Origin: an uncultured bacterium
GTDB taxonomy: Bacteria > Margulisbacteria > WOR-1 > JAKLHX01
Length of the DNA stretch: 64,000 nucleotides
Assembly: GCA_964603025.1 (NCBI GenBank)
Contig: CAZRTO010000001.1
Coordinates: forward strand, 8,428 to 72,427
Direction: 5' to 3'
Below are positions 4,639-6,847 of this stretch, piece after piece. Position 1 is the stretch's first letter. Every line of letters begins with the position of its first letter. Under the pieces are notes generated by a model, which saw only the letters and a list, made by a program, of their open reading frames with translations, did no database searches and had not been told where the DNA came from. The translations under genes were made by a program, and so were the position numbers.

Positions 4639-4717
4639 TGGGGTGGTCGACCGGACTCGAACCGGCAGCCTTCAGGGCCACAACCTGATGCTCTAACCAA
4701 ATTGAGCTACGACCACC
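4639..4717 (-). tRNA. tRNA-His (anticodon GTG) with encoded G-1 and CCA
   Basis: Reverse complement GGTGGTCGTAGCTCAATTTGGTTAGAGCATCAGGTTGTGGCCCTGAAGGCTGCCGGTTCGAGTCCGGTCGACCACCCCA. Anticodon loop TTGTGGC, an extra 5' G pairing with C73, and CCA encoded. Confidence 0.85.
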
Positions 4718-4780
4718 ATGCGCAAGGCGCCCTTGCTCCTTACTACTCACTCCTTAAGGAATAAGGAGCAAGGAGTAAGT

Positions 4781-4807
4781 GTTCAATTCCGCTTTGCGGA
4801 ATTGAAC
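4781..4807 (-). other. perfect 11-bp hairpin (gttcaattccg-ctttg-cggaattgaac) abutting 3' end of tRNA-Arg; probable processing/termination structure
   Basis: Exact inverted repeat read directly from the sequence. No U-tract follows on the minus strand. Confidence 0.5.
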
Positions 4808-4881
4808 CGTCCCCGGGGCGAATCGAACGCCCAACCTACAGCTTAGAAGGCTGTTGCTCTATCCAATTGAGCTACGGGGAC
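4808..4881 (-). tRNA. tRNA-Arg (anticodon TCT)
   Basis: Reverse complement GTCCCCGTAGCTCAATTGGATAGAGCAACAGCCTTCTAAGCTGTAGGTTGGGCGTTCGATTCGCCCCGGGGACG. Anticodon loop CTTCTAA. No encoded CCA. Confidence 0.85.
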
Positions 4882-4892
4882 ACAATTGAAAG

Positions 4893-4963
4893 AGCGGGCG
4901 ATGGGATTCGAACCCACGACCCCCTGCTTGGAAGGCAGGAGCTCTACCGCTGAGCTACACCCG
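4893..4963 (-). tRNA. tRNA-Gly (anticodon TCC)
   Basis: Reverse complement GCGGGTGTAGCTCAGCGGTAGAGCTCCTGCCTTCCAAGCAGGGGGTCGTGGGTTCGAATCCCATCGCCCGCT. Anticodon loop CTTCCAA. Confidence 0.85.
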
Positions 4964-4965
4964 CA

Positions 4966-5047
4966 TCTAGCTAATGGCTTATAGCTTATGGCTTATAGCC
5001 GGAAGATCATCGTCTATTATATTAGCTATATGCTATACGCCATTAGC
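4966..5047. repeat. palindromic inter-tRNA spacer element (imperfect ~18-bp inverted repeat plus 10-bp direct repeat ggcttatagc x2)
   Basis: gctaatggcttatagc (4969-4984) is complementary to gctatacgccattagc (5031-5046). ggcttatagc occurs at 4975-4984 and again at 4989-4998. Confidence 0.5.
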
Positions 5048-5057
5048 CATAAGCCAA

Positions 5058-5132
5058 ATCGGGGTGAGCCGATTCGAACGGCCGACCTCTCGCACCCCAA
5101 GCGAGTGCGCTAACCAAACTGCGCCACACCCC
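5058..5132 (-). tRNA. tRNA-Pro (anticodon GGG)
   Basis: Reverse complement CGGGGTGTGGCGCAGTTTGGTTAGCGCACTCGCTTGGGGTGCGAGAGGTCGGCCGTTCGAATCGGCTCACCCCGA. Anticodon loop TTGGGGT. Confidence 0.8.
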
Positions 5133-5268
5133 GTGAACGCCTTCGGCGTTAAGGAACAAGGAGCAAGGAATAAGGAGTAAGAACAAAATCAAATACTCCT
5201 ATTCAGCATTCCAACGCCTAAGCTATCATTAACAAGTATAACATGAGGATATTGGGTGGGATCATAGA

Positions 5269-5342
5269 ATCGGGGAGACAGGATTTGAACCTGCGGCCCC
5301 TTGCTCCCAAAGCAAGTGCTCTACCAAGCTGAGCTACTCCCC
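5269..5342 (-). tRNA. tRNA-Pro (anticodon TGG)
   Basis: Reverse complement CGGGGAGTAGCTCAGCTTGGTAGAGCACTTGCTTTGGGAGCAAGGGGCCGCAGGTTCAAATCCTGTCTCCCCGA. Anticodon loop TTTGGGA. Confidence 0.85.
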
Positions 5343-5468
5343 GTCATCTGAACCTGCGGCTCTCCCGCCAAAGGCGGGATGCTCTACCAAGCTGAGCTAC
5401 TCCCCGTCATCTGAACCTGCGGCTCTCCCGCCAAAGGCGGGATGCTCTACCAAGCTGAGCTACTCCCC
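5343..5468 (-). repeat. two exact tandem 63-nt copies of a 3'-truncated tRNA-Pro-like sequence (pseudo-tRNA repeats)
   Basis: Copy 1 spans 5343-5405 and copy 2 spans 5406-5468, both reading tcatctgaacctgcggctctcccgccaaaggcgggatgctctaccaagctgagctactccccg. They share the acceptor 5' strand, D-arm and part of the T-arm with the adjacent tRNA-Pro(TGG). The anticodon arm is replaced by a GC-rich hairpin, and the T-arm and acceptor 3' strand are missing. Confidence 0.65.
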
Positions 5469-5473
5469 GAAAT

Positions 5474-5509
5474 AAAAAACCGCGCTCTCATTATAACACG
5501 CGGTTTTTT
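5474..5509. terminator. bidirectional rho-independent terminator downstream of the repeat-protein gene
   Basis: aaaaaaccgcg-(14 nt loop)-cgcggtttttt. A GC stem flanked by an A-run and a T-run. Confidence 0.7.
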
Positions 5510-5532: not shown

Positions 5533-6633
5533 TTATCTCAGAGAAACCCTCATTACAGGATATTTATCCGCAGATGACACATCAAAGATAAGCTTGTCAG
5601 GAACCGCCTCTTCCGGCATTACGAACACGTAAGCTGTCTGGAACGTTTCTGCCGGCATGAGCTCCTTTATGTCATCATTATCCGCCCAGTTTACCGGATT
5701 CTTTGCTATATTCTCCATGTAGTACACCCGGTTGGCATCGATCACCATCACCCTGTGATAGTCTCCGCCATACACAGCAGTGAAAGGATCTTTGTTCTTT
5801 ATCTCTACTGTTACAACATAGAATATCGTACCCGCCGGAGGCATGCCGCCCCTTGGATCGGAATTCTTTTTTTCAGCTTTGAGCACCCTAAACGCGGTGT
5901 GTCCGTTGTTCAACCAGGTGTCTACCGGACCTTCCAGCTCGGACAACTGAACGGCGGCTTTCCCCTTTGGGGCCGCTTTTGCCTGCTGCGCTTGATTACG
6001 CTGTATGTTCTGCCAATGCCTGACGACCCTTTGTTTTTCCGCCCGCAGAGCCCTGACGCGGGCTGAGTTCCCCTGAGCTCTGGCTGATGCTATCTGCGAG
6101 TCCAGCGTCTGGAGCCGGGCCCTTACTTCCGCCTGCGTGGACGGCAGCGGCGCGGCCGGCGTCTTGGCCGCAGGAGCGGCCGCCGGAGCCTTACCGCCTT
6201 TTTGTATGCTCTGCCAATGCCTGACGACCCTTTGTTTTTCCGCCTGCAGAGCCTTAACGCGGGCTGAGTTCCCCTGAGCTCTGGCTGATGCTATCTGCGA
6301 GTCCAGCGTCTGGAGCCGGGCCCTTACTTCCGCCTGCGTGGACGGCAGCGGCGCGGCCGGCGTCTTGGCCGCAGGAGCGGCCGCCGGAGCCTTACCGCCC
6401 TGCTGTATGGCCTTCCATCTGTTCAAGGTCCTTTGTTTTTCTGCCTGAAGCTCCTTGACCTTTGCGGTATTGCCCTGCGCCCTGTTAAAAGTGATCTTTG
6501 CATCCAAAAGCTTGATGTAGTCGGCAACTTCCTGCTGCGTAGGCTGTTTTGTCTGGGCTGAAACGGAGGCTATCATAAAGAGAGATAGTATTAGCGCCGC
6601 GGCAACACCTTTCGGGTCGTTTTTCTTTAACAT
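5533..6633 (-). CDS. secreted protein with Pro/Ala-rich linkers, tandem 67-aa helical repeats and a C-terminal DUF4352-like beta-sandwich domain (hypothetical)
   Basis: 366 aa. Signal peptide MLKKNDPKGVAAALILSLFMIASVSAQT. Repeated KAPAAAPAAKTPAAPLPSTQAEVRARLQTLDSQIASARAQGNSARVKALQAEKQRVVRHWQSIQKGG. RBS GGAGG upstream. Confidence 0.6.
   Translation of the reverse strand: MLKKNDPKGVAAALILSLFMIASVSAQTKQPTQQEVADYIKLLDAKITFNRAQGNTAKVKELQAEKQRTLNRWKAIQQGGKAPAAAPAAKTPAAPLPSTQAEVRARLQTLDSQIASARAQGNSARVKALQAEKQRVVRHWQSIQKGGKAPAAAPAAKTPAAPLPSTQAEVRARLQTLDSQIASARAQGNSARVRALRAEKQRVVRHWQNIQRNQAQQAKAAPKGKAAVQLSELEGPVDTWLNNGHTAFRVLKAEKKNSDPRGGMPPAGTIFYVVTVEIKNKDPFTAVYGGDYHRVMVIDANRVYYMENIAKNPVNWADNDDIKELMPAETFQTAYVFVMPEEAVPDKLIFDVSSADKYPVMRVSLR
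6002..6403. repeat. near-identical 201-bp tandem direct repeat (2 copies, plus a diverged third copy to ~6500) inside the secreted-protein gene
   Basis: Landmarks tgtatg(t/c)tctgccaatgcctgacgaccctttgtttttccgcc at 6002 and 6203, and ggctgagttcccctgagctc at 6061 and 6262, both offset by 201 bp. Confidence 0.85.
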
Positions 6634-6773: not shown

Positions 6774-6847
6774 TCGGGGCGGCGGGATTTGAACCCACGA
6801 CCTTTCGGTCCCGAACCGAACGCTCTACCAAGCTGAGCCACGCCCCG
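6774..6847 (-). tRNA. tRNA-Pro (anticodon CGG)
   Basis: Reverse complement CGGGGCGTGGCTCAGCTTGGTAGAGCGTTCGGTTCGGGACCGAAAGGTCGTGGGTTCAAATCCCGCCGCCCCGA. Anticodon loop TTCGGGA. Confidence 0.85.

What the first reader, a model, noticed from the sequence alone, without database searches (positions are those of the whole stretch)
5343..5468. Two exact tandem 63-nt copies of a 3'-truncated tRNA-Pro-like sequence directly upstream of tRNA-Pro(TGG)
Each copy reproduces the 5' acceptor strand, the D-arm (CGGGGAGTAGCTCAGCTTGGTAGAGCA) and part of the T-stem of the adjacent tRNA-Pro(TGG). The anticodon arm is replaced by a GC-rich hairpin (TCCCGCC-TTTG-GCGGGA), and the T-loop and 3' acceptor strand are missing. 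The copies are identical to each other and abut the real tRNA with no spacer. A bidirectional terminator lies immediately upstream. Partial tRNA duplications usually mark integration scars of mobile elements, but no integrase or cargo genes are nearby, and the retained half is the 5' half, which is atypical for att sites. They would be transcribed as a structured leader of the tRNA-Pro(TGG)-Pro(GGG)-Gly-Arg-His array. I cannot tell apart a tRNA-derived small-RNA precursor, a decoy, or a slipped-strand duplication.
Basis: seen in the sequence. Interest (0 to 1): 0.55.

Follow-up and report, generated by a model that had tools for sequence, protein, structure and literature searches.

The report
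Truncated tRNA-Pro copies in leader
Two identical 63-base stubs of a proline tRNA gene lie in front of the intact gene in an uncultured bacterium; they are most likely degenerate leftovers of a partial gene duplication whose copy number varies between relatives, so the finding is real but fairly ordinary.

Summary
On the minus strand, two identical 63-nt units (5469..5407 and 5406..5344) lie head to tail directly 5' of tRNA-Pro(UGG) (5343..5270). Each unit matches tRNA positions 1-58 and then has 5 unrelated nt. The 3' T-stem strand and the 3' acceptor strand are missing. The 17-nt anticodon arm is replaced by the perfect hairpin TCCCGCC-TTT-GGCGGGA. Neither ARAGORN nor Rfam scores the units as tRNAs.

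Syntenic contigs, probably from Candidatus Margulisiibacteriota, put the units in context:
- A 98%-related strain has the same two units.
- A sister lineage has homologous 81-nt units with the same truncation point and a different but still perfect hairpin, in 2 or 1 copies.
- Its closest relatives have none.
- A more distant lineage keeps only the last 18 nt.

An invariant CGTG(T/C)TATAAT in the loop of the upstream terminator hairpin is probably the tRNA promoter. That would make the units a transcribed 5' leader.

Best reading: a degenerate partial tandem duplication of the tRNA gene that expands and contracts by unequal recombination and is removed by RNase P. It mirrors the E. coli tyrT 3' repeats. 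A functional role, as a folding competitor or as a small-RNA source, is not excluded.

The parts
5474..5509 (-). Terminator-type hairpin of the upstream DUF4352-protein gene: AAAAAACCGCG, a 14-nt loop, then CGCGGTTTTTT. The loop carries the extended -10 element TGTTATAAT (5498..5490). This is the probable promoter of tRNA-Pro(UGG). The inferred start is near 5484-5482, inside the 3' arm of the hairpin.
   Evidence: The sequence was read and the terminator-like site was flagged. CGTG(T/C)TATAAT is invariant in all 12 syntenic loci, including L023, where the hairpin itself is absent. Promoter use and the start site are inferred, not shown.
5407..5469 (-). Distal 63-nt truncated tRNA-Pro unit, made of:
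- acceptor 5' strand, 5469-5463
- D-arm, 5460-5444
- GC hairpin, 5442-5426
- T-stem 5' strand GCAGG, 5420-5416
- TTCAGAT, 5415-5409
- GA, 5408-5407
   Evidence: Supported. It is not called by ARAGORN or by Rfam at E<=10 in the 3.5-kb scan.
5344..5406 (-). Proximal 63-nt unit, identical to the distal one. Its GC hairpin is at 5379-5363. It abuts position +1 of the real tRNA.
   Evidence: Supported. The Rfam tRNA model gives a 3'-truncated match to model positions 1-58, at 19.6 bits against a gathering score of 29.
5270..5343 (-). Intact tRNA-Pro(UGG), the parent of the units. It holds the only copy of the 3' T-stem and acceptor strands (CCTGTCTCCCCGA) in the window.
   Evidence: Called by ARAGORN and by the Rfam tRNA model at 69.3 bits. 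CCTGTCTCCCCGA has a single exact match in the window.
4639..5133 (-). The rest of the tRNA array: Pro(GGG), Gly(UCC), Arg(UCU) and His(GUG). A second extended -10-like element, TGTTATACT (5243..5235), lies between Pro(UGG) and Pro(GGG). The downstream tRNAs may therefore have their own promoter.
   Evidence: The tRNAs are supported. TG(T/A)TATACT is conserved in L001, L003, L010 and L022. Promoter function is inferred.

Best explanation
The two units are degenerate, non-functional partial copies (pseudogene stubs) of tRNA-Pro(UGG).

**Proposed history (inferred)**
1. An ancestor of this lineage duplicated in tandem the segment from just upstream of the tRNA to its T-loop. Alternatively, it made a full tandem copy that later lost its last 16 nt and the spacer.
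2. The upstream copy lacks the 3' T-stem and acceptor strands, so it cannot become a tRNA. Its anticodon arm decayed into a perfect GC palindrome.
3. The tracts that still match the tRNA (nt 1-27 and 47-58) are kept identical to the functional gene 63-126 nt away. Gene conversion or recent re-duplication would explain this.
4. Unequal crossing-over or replication slippage between these direct repeats adds and removes whole units. Relatives therefore carry 2, 1 or 0 units, and copies within one genome are identical.

**Proposed fate of the transcript (inferred)**
5. The stubs lie downstream of the conserved TGnTATAAT promoter in the terminator loop. They would be transcribed as the 5' leader of the tRNA-Pro(UGG) precursor.
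6. RNase P would cut them off at +1 of the real tRNA, and they would then be degraded.

**Shown versus inferred**
- Shown: the anatomy, the homology, the copy-number variation and the conservation of the promoter motif.
- Inferred: transcription, processing, gene conversion and the absence of a dedicated function.
For: - **Exact periodic repeat.** Period 63, 100% identity over 153 nt.
- **Truncated tRNA.** A unit aligns to tRNA model positions 1-58 only and scores below threshold.
- **No partner strand.** No second copy of the 3' strands exists in the window.
- **Variable copy number.** Loci with near-identical flanks differ: L003 and L005 have 2 units of 81 nt, L004 has 1, and L010 and L022 have 0.
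- **Absent in other relatives.** L024, L008 and L023 have 0 units.
- **Decay.** L006 and L007 keep only the last 18 nt, GGTCGCAGGTTTATACAT.
- **Tolerance of damage.** The 81-nt units carry a 20-nt perfect palindrome inserted in the D-loop.
- **Concerted pattern.** Strain L001 has GACGA instead of GATGA in both copies.
- **Uneven divergence.** The tRNA-matching tracts show 0 differences. The hairpin and the 5-nt tail differ heavily between the 63-nt and 81-nt units.
- **Ordinary context.** The neighbouring genes are housekeeping genes.
- **Known mirror-image precedent.** The E. coli tyrT-tyrV locus has 3.1 tandem 178-bp units, each carrying the 3' end of tRNA-Tyr.
Against: - The element persists at the same position, with the same truncation point, in two lineages whose neighbouring proteins are only 72-74% identical. 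Adjacent spacers in those lineages are essentially unalignable.
- In both lineages the replaced arm is a perfect hairpin with a shared CGCC-N3-GGCG core. The outer pairs changed on both strands together: TCCCGCC/GGCGGGA against GTCGCC/GGCGAC. This suggests constraint on structure. DNA-level template switching that perfects a palindrome is an alternative.
- Gene conversion is inferred, not demonstrated.
- Only two distinct unit types and one remnant are available, so selection cannot be tested.
Confidence: 0.6

Rival explanations
1. The units are a functional structured leader, an acceptor-less tRNA mimic. Two versions are possible:
- **Cis-acting folding competitor.** Each unit offers a free copy of the acceptor 5' strand and the T-stem 5' strand. 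These can capture the single 3' strand of the real tRNA and so tune RNase P maturation of tRNA-Pro(UGG).
- **Source of a small RNA.** After cleavage the units persist as a stable tRNA-like small RNA, as reported for RttR from the E. coli tyrT repeats. That report is from my own knowledge; the annotation was seen.
For: - **Competing folds.** In precursor folds, the native cloverleaf (-88.9 kcal/mol) and folds in which the 3' acceptor strand pairs with the distal unit (-89.6, and -89.9 for the unconstrained minimum) have nearly the same energy. The same holds for the 81-nt precursors.
- **Selective retention.** The units keep exactly the strands whose partners are missing, plus the D-arm. The self-contained anticodon arm became a stronger hairpin with coordinated changes on both arms between lineages.
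- **Persistence.** The element persists across lineages with saturated spacer divergence.
- **Recurrence.** In L008 other tRNA genes (Pro(CGG), Gly, Arg) are also preceded by units that start with the tRNA's own first 10-12 nt and hold hairpins with compensatory changes.
Against: - The units are absent from the closest relatives of the 81-nt carriers and from several other lineages. They are reduced to 18 nt in L006. They are therefore dispensable.
- A 20-nt insertion in the D-loop is tolerated.
- No Rfam family matches.
- Fold z-scores of the units alone are unremarkable: -1.0 for one unit and -1.7 for two.
- No expression data are available.
Confidence: 0.22
2. The units are a scar of a mobile element. 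One version is a remnant of an integrative element that entered at the T-loop of tRNA-Pro(UGG) and carried its own tRNA 5' part. The other is the footprint of a small element with terminal inverted repeats that inserts into tRNA genes with long target-site duplications.
For: - The truncation lies in the T-loop, a classic crossover site of tRNA-targeting tyrosine integrases (my own knowledge).
- Relatives carry large serine recombinase genes right after tRNA-His (L004) and right after tRNA-Pro(UGG) (L023).
- L008 has small hairpin elements flanked by 11-13-nt duplicates of tRNA 5' ends.
Against: - No integrase and no cargo lie near the site in the window.
- Integrative elements displace 3' fragments, and the fragments flank the element. 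Here 5' fragments abut each other with only 5 nt between them.
- The supposed insert contains 12-14 nt of the tRNA's own T-arm, so it is gene-derived, not foreign.
- The L008 motif TCGACARGCTC is absent from the window beyond chance.
- The recombinase elements in relatives sit on the 3' side of the tRNAs.
- Neither the unit hairpin pattern nor the unit-to-tRNA junction pattern is found in viral contigs.
Confidence: 0.1
3. The duplication is an assembly artefact: a repeat unrolled or collapsed by a short-read assembler, with a true copy number of 1 or another value.
For: - The copies are 100% identical.
- Contigs from several samples break at or before this region.
- The 1 versus 2 difference between L004 and L003/L005 could be a collapse.
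Against: - A unit-to-unit junction (tail, then 27 nt, then hairpin, more than 36 nt) can only be assembled if reads contain it.
- Two independent assemblies from different samples give two units. They differ by a SNP that is present in both copies.
- The 81-nt homologue is assembled as two units in two JGI samples.
- Loci with zero units cannot arise by collapse, so real variation exists.
Confidence: 0.04

Closest known systems
E. coli tyrT-tyrV locus: tandem 178-bp repeats carrying the 3' end of tRNA-Tyr (annotated rttR small RNA and tpr)
   Same: Both are tandem repeat units that each contain a partial copy of the adjacent tRNA gene. Both lie in the same transcription unit. The standard explanation is unequal recombination. 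This was checked here: period 178, 3.1 copies, 95% matches, starting inside tyrV.
   Different: - The E. coli units hold the 3' end (T-stem 3' strand, acceptor 3' strand and CCA) and lie downstream of the tRNA. Here the units hold the 5' 58 nt and lie upstream, in the leader.
- The E. coli units are longer and 5% diverged.
- A processed RNA (RttR) is annotated in E. coli. Nothing comparable is known here.
tRNA pseudogenes left by tandem duplication and random loss (organelle genomes)
   Same: Both are partial or degenerate tRNA copies next to the functional gene. They are generated by tandem duplication and slipped-strand events and decay at different rates in related lineages. The papers surfaced concern this model.
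   Different: That model concerns mitochondrial and plastid genomes. It involves whole-gene duplication followed by loss, not in-register stubs with variable copy number inside a bacterial tRNA leader.
Partial tRNA duplicates at attL/attR sites of integrative elements
   Same: Both involve a direct repeat of part of a tRNA gene next to the intact gene. The break point in the T-loop is a known crossover sublocation (my own knowledge).
   Different: att duplicates are 3' fragments. They are separated from the tRNA by the whole element and accompanied by an integrase. Here 5' fragments are adjacent, no element is present, and the anticodon arm has been replaced.
tRNA-like structural mimics (tmRNA tRNA-like domain, YrlA, mascRNA)
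   Same: These are also RNAs that keep some tRNA modules and lack a normal anticodon arm.
   Different: Those mimics keep the acceptor stem and T-arm, which are the parts recognised by RNase P, the CCA-adding enzyme and EF-Tu. The units here lack exactly those helices. YrlA matches only at 15 bits against a gathering score of 69.
Leader units upstream of tRNA-Pro(CGG), Gly and Arg in the related contig L008
   Same: These are also one or two tandem units of about 63-108 nt. Each starts with the first 10-12 nt of the downstream tRNA and contains a stable hairpin, in the same clade.
   Different: The L008 units share a TCGACAGGCTC / GAGCTTGTCGA motif pair and show no tRNA similarity beyond nt 11. 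They look like small elements with terminal inverted repeats and 11-13-bp target duplications. The window's units keep tRNA nt 1-27 and 47-58 and lack that motif.

Membership tests
Bona fide tRNA gene | Complete cloverleaf with a 7-bp acceptor stem and a T-arm, scoring above detector thresholds | tested here: not met
   ARAGORN does not call the units. The Rfam tRNA model gives no hit at E<=10 in the 3.5-kb scan. In the 132-nt scan it gives only a 3'-truncated match to model positions 1-58, at 19.6 bits against a gathering score of 29. The 3' strands are absent.
Bona fide tRNA gene | Seven-membered anticodon loop with U33 | tested here: not met
   The 17-nt arm TCCCG-CCTTTGG-CGGGA has C at position 33. 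It closes to a 7-bp stem with a 3-nt loop in the predicted fold.
Partial tandem duplication of a gene (variable-number repeat / pseudogene stubs) | Head-to-tail units that match the adjacent parent gene | tested here: met
   Period 63, 100% identity, 2.4 copies running into the tRNA. The units match the tRNA over nt 1-27 and 47-58.
Partial tandem duplication of a gene (variable-number repeat / pseudogene stubs) | In-register copy-number differences between close relatives | tested here: met
   Loci with near-identical flanks carry 2, 1 or 0 units. The 1 versus 2 difference could be an assembly collapse. The 0 versus 1 or more difference cannot.
Partial tandem duplication of a gene (variable-number repeat / pseudogene stubs) | Dispensability and decay in some lineages | tested here: met
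   An 18-nt remnant is found in L006 and L007. L008, L023 and L024 have no units. The 81-nt units carry a 20-nt insertion in the D-loop.
att-site scar of a tRNA-targeting integrative element | Integrase or recombinase and cargo between or beside the repeats | tested here: not met
   Every ORF within about 5 kb on either side is a housekeeping or conserved hypothetical gene. The units abut each other.
att-site scar of a tRNA-targeting integrative element | The duplicated fragment is the 3' part of the tRNA | tested here: not met
   The units hold the 5' 58 nt. The 3' strands occur once only.
Intrinsic terminator or attenuator in the leader | GC-rich hairpin followed directly by a U-run | tested here: not met
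   The unit hairpin is followed by GAGCCGCAGG. The scan finds no terminator-like site inside the units.
CRISPR array (27-nt repeats and 36-nt spacers by geometry) | Unique spacers between the repeats | tested here: not met
   The two 36-nt intervals are identical and partly derived from the tRNA.
Any described RNA family (Rfam 15) | Match at or above the family's gathering score | tested here: not met
   Only sub-threshold matches: tRNA 19.6 against 29, YrlA 15.3 against 69, sot0042 14.5 against 88.
Split or trans-assembled tRNA half | A separately encoded 3' half with complementary acceptor and T-stem strands | tested here: inconclusive
   No such half exists in the 64-kb window; CCTGTCTCCCCGA has only the real tRNA as an exact match. 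The rest of the genome could not be searched.

The most novel reading that the evidence does not exclude
The stubs would be a maintained tRNA half-mimic in the 5' leader. It keeps the acceptor 5' strand, the D-arm and the T-stem 5' strand, with a locked hairpin in place of the anticodon arm. It would compete with the real 5' half for the single 3' strand of the precursor. The number of units would then set how much mature tRNA-Pro(UGG) is made, acting as a copy-number-variable folding switch. Alternatively, the released leader would act as a stable tRNA-derived small RNA. Together with the L008 units that begin with the 5' ends of tRNA-Pro(CGG), Gly and Arg, this would define a clade-wide class of self-mimicking tRNA leaders.
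Probability: 0.18. Interest if true: 0.6.

Novelty: new variant of a known kind. Interest (0 to 1): 0.3.

Why it matters
If the ordinary reading is right, this is a clean bacterial example of a partial tRNA gene duplication caught at several stages: 2, 1 and 0 copies, and an 18-nt remnant. It is the 5' mirror image of the classic E. coli tyrT 3' repeats. It is also a practical warning. Such stubs break short-read assemblies, and they can be mistaken for att sites or pseudo-tRNAs in annotation.

If the units are maintained, they would be an unusual cis element. The predicted precursor folds show that the leader competes on equal energetic terms for the tRNA's acceptor 3' strand. The number of units could then tune maturation of the only tRNA-Pro(UGG) gene seen in the window. 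That idea is directly testable with RNase P assays on precursors carrying 0, 1 or 2 units.

The promoter embedded in a terminator loop, conserved across the clade, is a neat side result.

Tried and rejected
1. **Bona fide or cryptic tRNA.** Rejected by ARAGORN and Rfam.
2. **Coding potential.** Both unit lengths, 63 and 81, are multiples of 3. However, no ORF spans the window's units, because the GATGA tail gives stop codons. The open frames in L003 are not conserved.
3. **Split-tRNA partner.** No second CCTGTCTCCCCGA-like 3' half exists in the window.
4. **Other copies of the hairpin in the window.** None.
5. **Phage or attP origin.** The unit hairpin pattern and the unit-to-tRNA junction pattern find nothing in viral contigs.
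6. **Wider distribution.**
   - The junction pattern GCAGGTT-N4-10-CGGGGAGTRGCKCAGC was scanned in 185,579 species-representative genomes and in the JGI metagenome contigs.
   - Among the clade's loci these scans returned only the L005 contig.
   - The hits in Acidobacteria, Chloroflexota and Sphingomonas are a bare GCAGGTT in a tRNA-Pro leader, about or below the number expected by chance (my estimate).
   - One hit lies in coding sequence.
7. **TAAAACGGGGAGT in L003-L005.** This sequence at 6841/6760 matches the 81-nt unit junction, but it lies inside the serine recombinase coding region. I take it as coincidence.
8. **CCCGCC-N3-GGCGGG hairpins in L023.** They share the stem with the unit hairpin, but they belong to 158-nt perfect inverted repeats that flank a recombinase gene. 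They are unrelated to the units.
9. **L008 motif TCGACARGCTC.** It is not in the window beyond chance.
10. **Further relatives.** Ten contigs carry the identical DUF4412 protein, but all except the one that duplicates L002 break before the site.
11. **Literature.** Four full-text searches found no description of such 5' stubs in bacteria. They returned only organelle papers on duplication and loss.
12. **Formal covariation statistics.** Not attempted, because only two unit types exist.

Full report
**1. The observation**

All six tRNA genes of the window are on the minus strand. Read 5'->3' on that strand, the locus is laid out as follows:

| Feature | Minus-strand coordinates |
|---|---|
| End of a 366-aa DUF4352-type secreted protein gene | 6633..5533 |
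| Hairpin AAAAAACCGCG, 14-nt loop, CGCGGTTTTTT | 5509..5474 |
| Unit 1 | 5469..5407 |
| Unit 2 | 5406..5344 |
| tRNA-Pro(UGG) | 5343..5270 |
| tRNA-Pro(GGG), Gly(UCC), Arg(UCU), His(GUG) | 5133..4639 |

- Tandem Repeats Finder gives period 63, 2.4 copies and 100% matches at 5317-5469.
- The first 27 nt of the tRNA occur three times exactly, against 0.00 expected.
- The hairpin TCCCGCCTTTGGCGGGA occurs only in the two units.

The feature is therefore real and far beyond chance.

**2. Anatomy**

Aligned to the real tRNA, each unit has these parts:
- tRNA nt 1-27, which are the acceptor 5' strand, the D-arm and nt 26-27;
- a 17-nt replacement of the 17-nt anticodon arm;
- GAGCC, where the tRNA has GGGCC;
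- the T-stem 5' strand GCAGG;
- TTCAGAT, where the T-loop reads TTCAAAT;
- GA.

Equivalently, a unit is the 74-nt tRNA minus 11 nt: the 3' T-stem strand and the 3' acceptor strand.

Rfam's tRNA model aligns a unit to model positions 1-58 of 71, at 19.6 bits against a gathering score of 29, and only when the 132-nt stretch is scanned alone. ARAGORN and the wider Rfam scan do not call the units. The replacement arm is predicted to fold as a 7-bp GC stem with a 3-nt loop. No ORF spans the units. No second copy of the missing 3' strands exists in the window.

**3. Context**

- The neighbours are ordinary chromosomal genes: Maf, a nitroreductase and a P-type ATPase on one side, and a DUF4352 protein, tRNA-Pro(CGG), DUF4412, a Ham1-like protein, PurD, RecJ, AccB and EF-P on the other.
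- There is no integrase.
- Homologues of the adjacent proteins come from metagenomes. Two of them, P0008 and P0015, which are 56-64% identical to the window's proteins, are named by NCBI as Candidatus Margulisiibacteriota.
- All retrieved loci share the synteny RecJ, PurD, Ham1-like, DUF4412, tRNA-Pro(CGG), DUF4352 protein, tRNA array.

**4. Relatives**

| Locus | Neighbour protein identity | State upstream of tRNA-Pro(UGG) |
|---|---|---|
| L001 (other sample) | 98% | Two 63-nt units, both with GACGA instead of GATGA |
| L002 (third sample) | 91% | Contig ends 30 nt into the first unit, just past the leader-to-unit junction |
| L003, L005 | 74% | Two identical 81-nt units |
| L004 (same protein, other sample) | 74% | One 81-nt unit |
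| L022 | 73% | No unit; flanks almost identical to L003 |
| L010 | 71% | No unit; flanks almost identical to L003 |
| L024 | 60% | No unit |
| L006, L007 (two samples) | 58% | Only GGTCGCAGGTTTATACAT directly before the tRNA |
| L008 | 56% | No unit |
| L023 | 52% | No unit |

The 81-nt unit is clearly homologous to the 63-nt unit:
- It has the same tRNA nt 1-27, but a 20-nt perfect palindrome, CCTGCCTGCCGGCAGGCAGG, is inserted in the D-loop.
- Its anticodon arm is replaced by GTCGCC-TCA-GGCGAC.
- It ends at the same point: GCAGGTTCA followed by 5 nt (TAAAA).

The L006/L007 remnant corresponds to the T-stem 5' strand plus 7 nt, with the same spacing as the end of a unit.

Scans of 185,579 species-representative genomes, of the JGI contigs and of viral contigs found no further carriers. 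The element is therefore confined to a narrow clade and older than the split between the 63-nt and 81-nt lineages. It varies in copy number and has been lost repeatedly.

**5. Pattern of divergence**

Between the window and L003, the spacer from Pro(UGG) to Pro(GGG) is essentially unalignable. The real tRNAs differ only by one compensated pair in the anticodon stem.

Within the units, the tracts that match the tRNA show no difference from the functional gene in either lineage. The hairpin, one base of the variable region and the 5-nt tail differ substantially. Neutral decay without homogenisation cannot produce this. Either gene conversion from the adjacent gene or selection is needed.

Both hairpins are perfect and share a CGCC-N3-GGCG core. 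Their outer pairs differ on both strands together. This is the main argument for a structural constraint. With only two unit types it is not statistically testable, and template switching that perfects a palindrome at the DNA level is an alternative.

**6. Transcription**

CGTG(T/C)TATAAT is invariant in all 12 loci. The rest of the hairpin loop varies, and L023 lacks the hairpin altogether. This is an extended -10 element, at 5498..5490 in the window, followed by the GC-rich 3' arm of the hairpin.

I infer that it is the promoter of tRNA-Pro(UGG), starting near 5484-5482. The tRNA transcript would then lack the 5' arm of the terminator and would not terminate itself. The units would be the 5' leader, to be removed by RNase P at +1 of the real tRNA.

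A second conserved element, TG(T/A)TATACT (5243..5235), suggests that Pro(GGG), Gly, Arg and His have their own promoter. These points are inferences from sequence. The simple promoter scan did not list either site, because it requires a -35 match.

**7. Folding**

Taken alone, the units are not unusually stable: z = -1.0 for one unit and -1.7 for two. In the inferred precursor (5483..5270) the competing folds have nearly the same energy:

| Fold | Energy (kcal/mol) |
|---|---|
| Native cloverleaf | -88.9 |
| 3' acceptor strand paired with the distal unit's acceptor 5' strand | -89.6 |
| Unconstrained minimum | -89.9 |

The same holds for the precursors with one and two 81-nt units. The leader can therefore in principle compete for the tRNA's 3' strand. 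Whether it does so in vivo is unknown.

**8. Interpretation**

The simplest account that covers everything is a degenerate partial tandem duplication of tRNA-Pro(UGG).
- A tandem duplication that spans the 5' boundary of a tRNA gene and ends inside it leaves an intact gene preceded by a 5' stub. Such an event is tolerated, whereas a duplication wholly inside the gene is not.
- The direct repeats (27 nt, or 14 + 13 nt) then allow gain and loss in register.
- This explains identical copies within a genome, the shared SNP in both L001 copies, the 2/1/0 series and the 18-nt remnant.

The mirror-image precedent is the E. coli tyrT-tyrV locus. I verified there 3.1 tandem 178-bp units, each carrying the 3' end of tRNA-Tyr and annotated as rttR/tpr.

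My estimates for the explanations are:

| Explanation | Estimate |
|---|---|
| Degenerate partial tandem duplication | about 0.6 |
| Maintained functional leader (folding competitor or small-RNA source) | about 0.2 |
| Mobile-element scar | about 0.1 |
| Assembly artefact | a few percent |

The functional reading rests on persistence, the perfect hairpins and the isoenergetic folds. Dispensability in close relatives argues against it. The mobile-element reading suffers from the wrong half of the tRNA, the absence of cargo and the gene-derived interior of the units. The artefact reading is contradicted by independent assemblies that contain the unit-to-unit junction.

**9. Comparison and novelty**

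The units are not tRNAs, not att scars, not terminators, not a CRISPR array and not a member of any Rfam family (see the membership tests). They are a new variant of a known kind, namely partial tRNA gene repeats. Three things are unusual: they are 5' stubs inside the leader, they carry a hairpin in place of the anticodon arm, and they can be followed through several evolutionary states in an uncultured phylum. Interest is modest.

**10. Limits**

- Only two unit types and one remnant could be recovered. Most contigs of this species break at tRNA-Pro(CGG) or in the 201-nt repeat of the neighbouring gene.
- Copy numbers come from short-read assemblies.
- No expression data were available.
- The literature searches found no description of such 5' stubs in bacteria, but the library lacks most older subscription papers.

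Noticed in passing
L008 2706-2833, 4209-4408 and 4484-4577 (related Margulisiibacteriota contig): Other tRNA genes are preceded by units that begin with the tRNA's own first 10-12 nt. There are two units (64 and 63 nt) before tRNA-Pro(CGG), two before tRNA-Gly and one before tRNA-Arg. All share a hairpin whose loop, TCGACAGGCTC, is complementary to the unit's tail, GAGCTTGTCGA. The stems differ by compensatory changes. The duplicated tRNA piece always ends at nt +10 to +12 and is 11-13 nt long. This looks like target-site duplication by a small inverted-repeat element that targets tRNA genes. The sister contig L006 lacks the units but has the same tails right before the tRNAs.
   Followed up: partly
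window 5474-5509 (minus strand), and all 12 syntenic loci: The terminator hairpin of the upstream gene carries an invariant extended -10 element, CGTG(T/C)TATAAT, in its loop. The terminator and the probable tRNA promoter therefore overlap. A transcript started there would contain only the 3' arm of the hairpin.
   Followed up: partly
window 5235-5243 (minus strand): A second extended -10-like element, TGTTATACT, lies between tRNA-Pro(UGG) and tRNA-Pro(GGG). It is conserved as TG(T/A)TATACT in L001, L003, L010 and L022. It is absent from L006 and L008, where the two tRNAs are 1 nt apart.
   Followed up: partly
window 4720-4800, 4968-5056 and 5145-5190: The spacers of the tRNA array are built from 7-nt repeats (TAAGGAG, AAGGAAC, TAGCTTA, AGCCATA). 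These form long near-perfect hairpins. Similar hairpins flank tRNA-His in L008. The Pro(UGG)-Pro(GGG) spacer is 136 nt here but 46 nt and unrelated in strain L001, whose neighbouring protein is 98% identical.
   Followed up: no
window 6000-6447, inside ORF 5533-6633 (minus strand): A 201-nt tandem repeat (2.0-2.2 copies, 91-97% identical) lies inside the DUF1090/DUF4352-type secreted protein gene. Homologues are 366-369 aa or about 299-318 aa long, so the repeat number probably varies. Many short-read contigs of this species end here.
   Followed up: no
L004 5485-7524 (and L003, L005); L023 1413-2999: Large serine recombinase genes lie directly after tRNA-His in the sister species and directly after tRNA-Pro(UGG) in L023. 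Their reading frames run antisense into the tRNA genes. In L023 the gene is flanked by 158-nt perfect inverted repeats that begin at the tRNA 3' end. This could be an invertible or mobile segment, or a palindromic assembly artefact. No such element is present in the window.
   Followed up: partly
L003 5198-5217 and 5279-5298; L008 4836-4862: A perfect 20-nt palindrome, CCTGCCTGCCGGCAGGCAGG, is inserted in the D-loop of the 81-nt units. A similar GCCTGCCGG-N-GGGCAGGC palindrome lies after tRNA-His in L008. This may be a small dispersed palindromic element in this clade.
   Followed up: no
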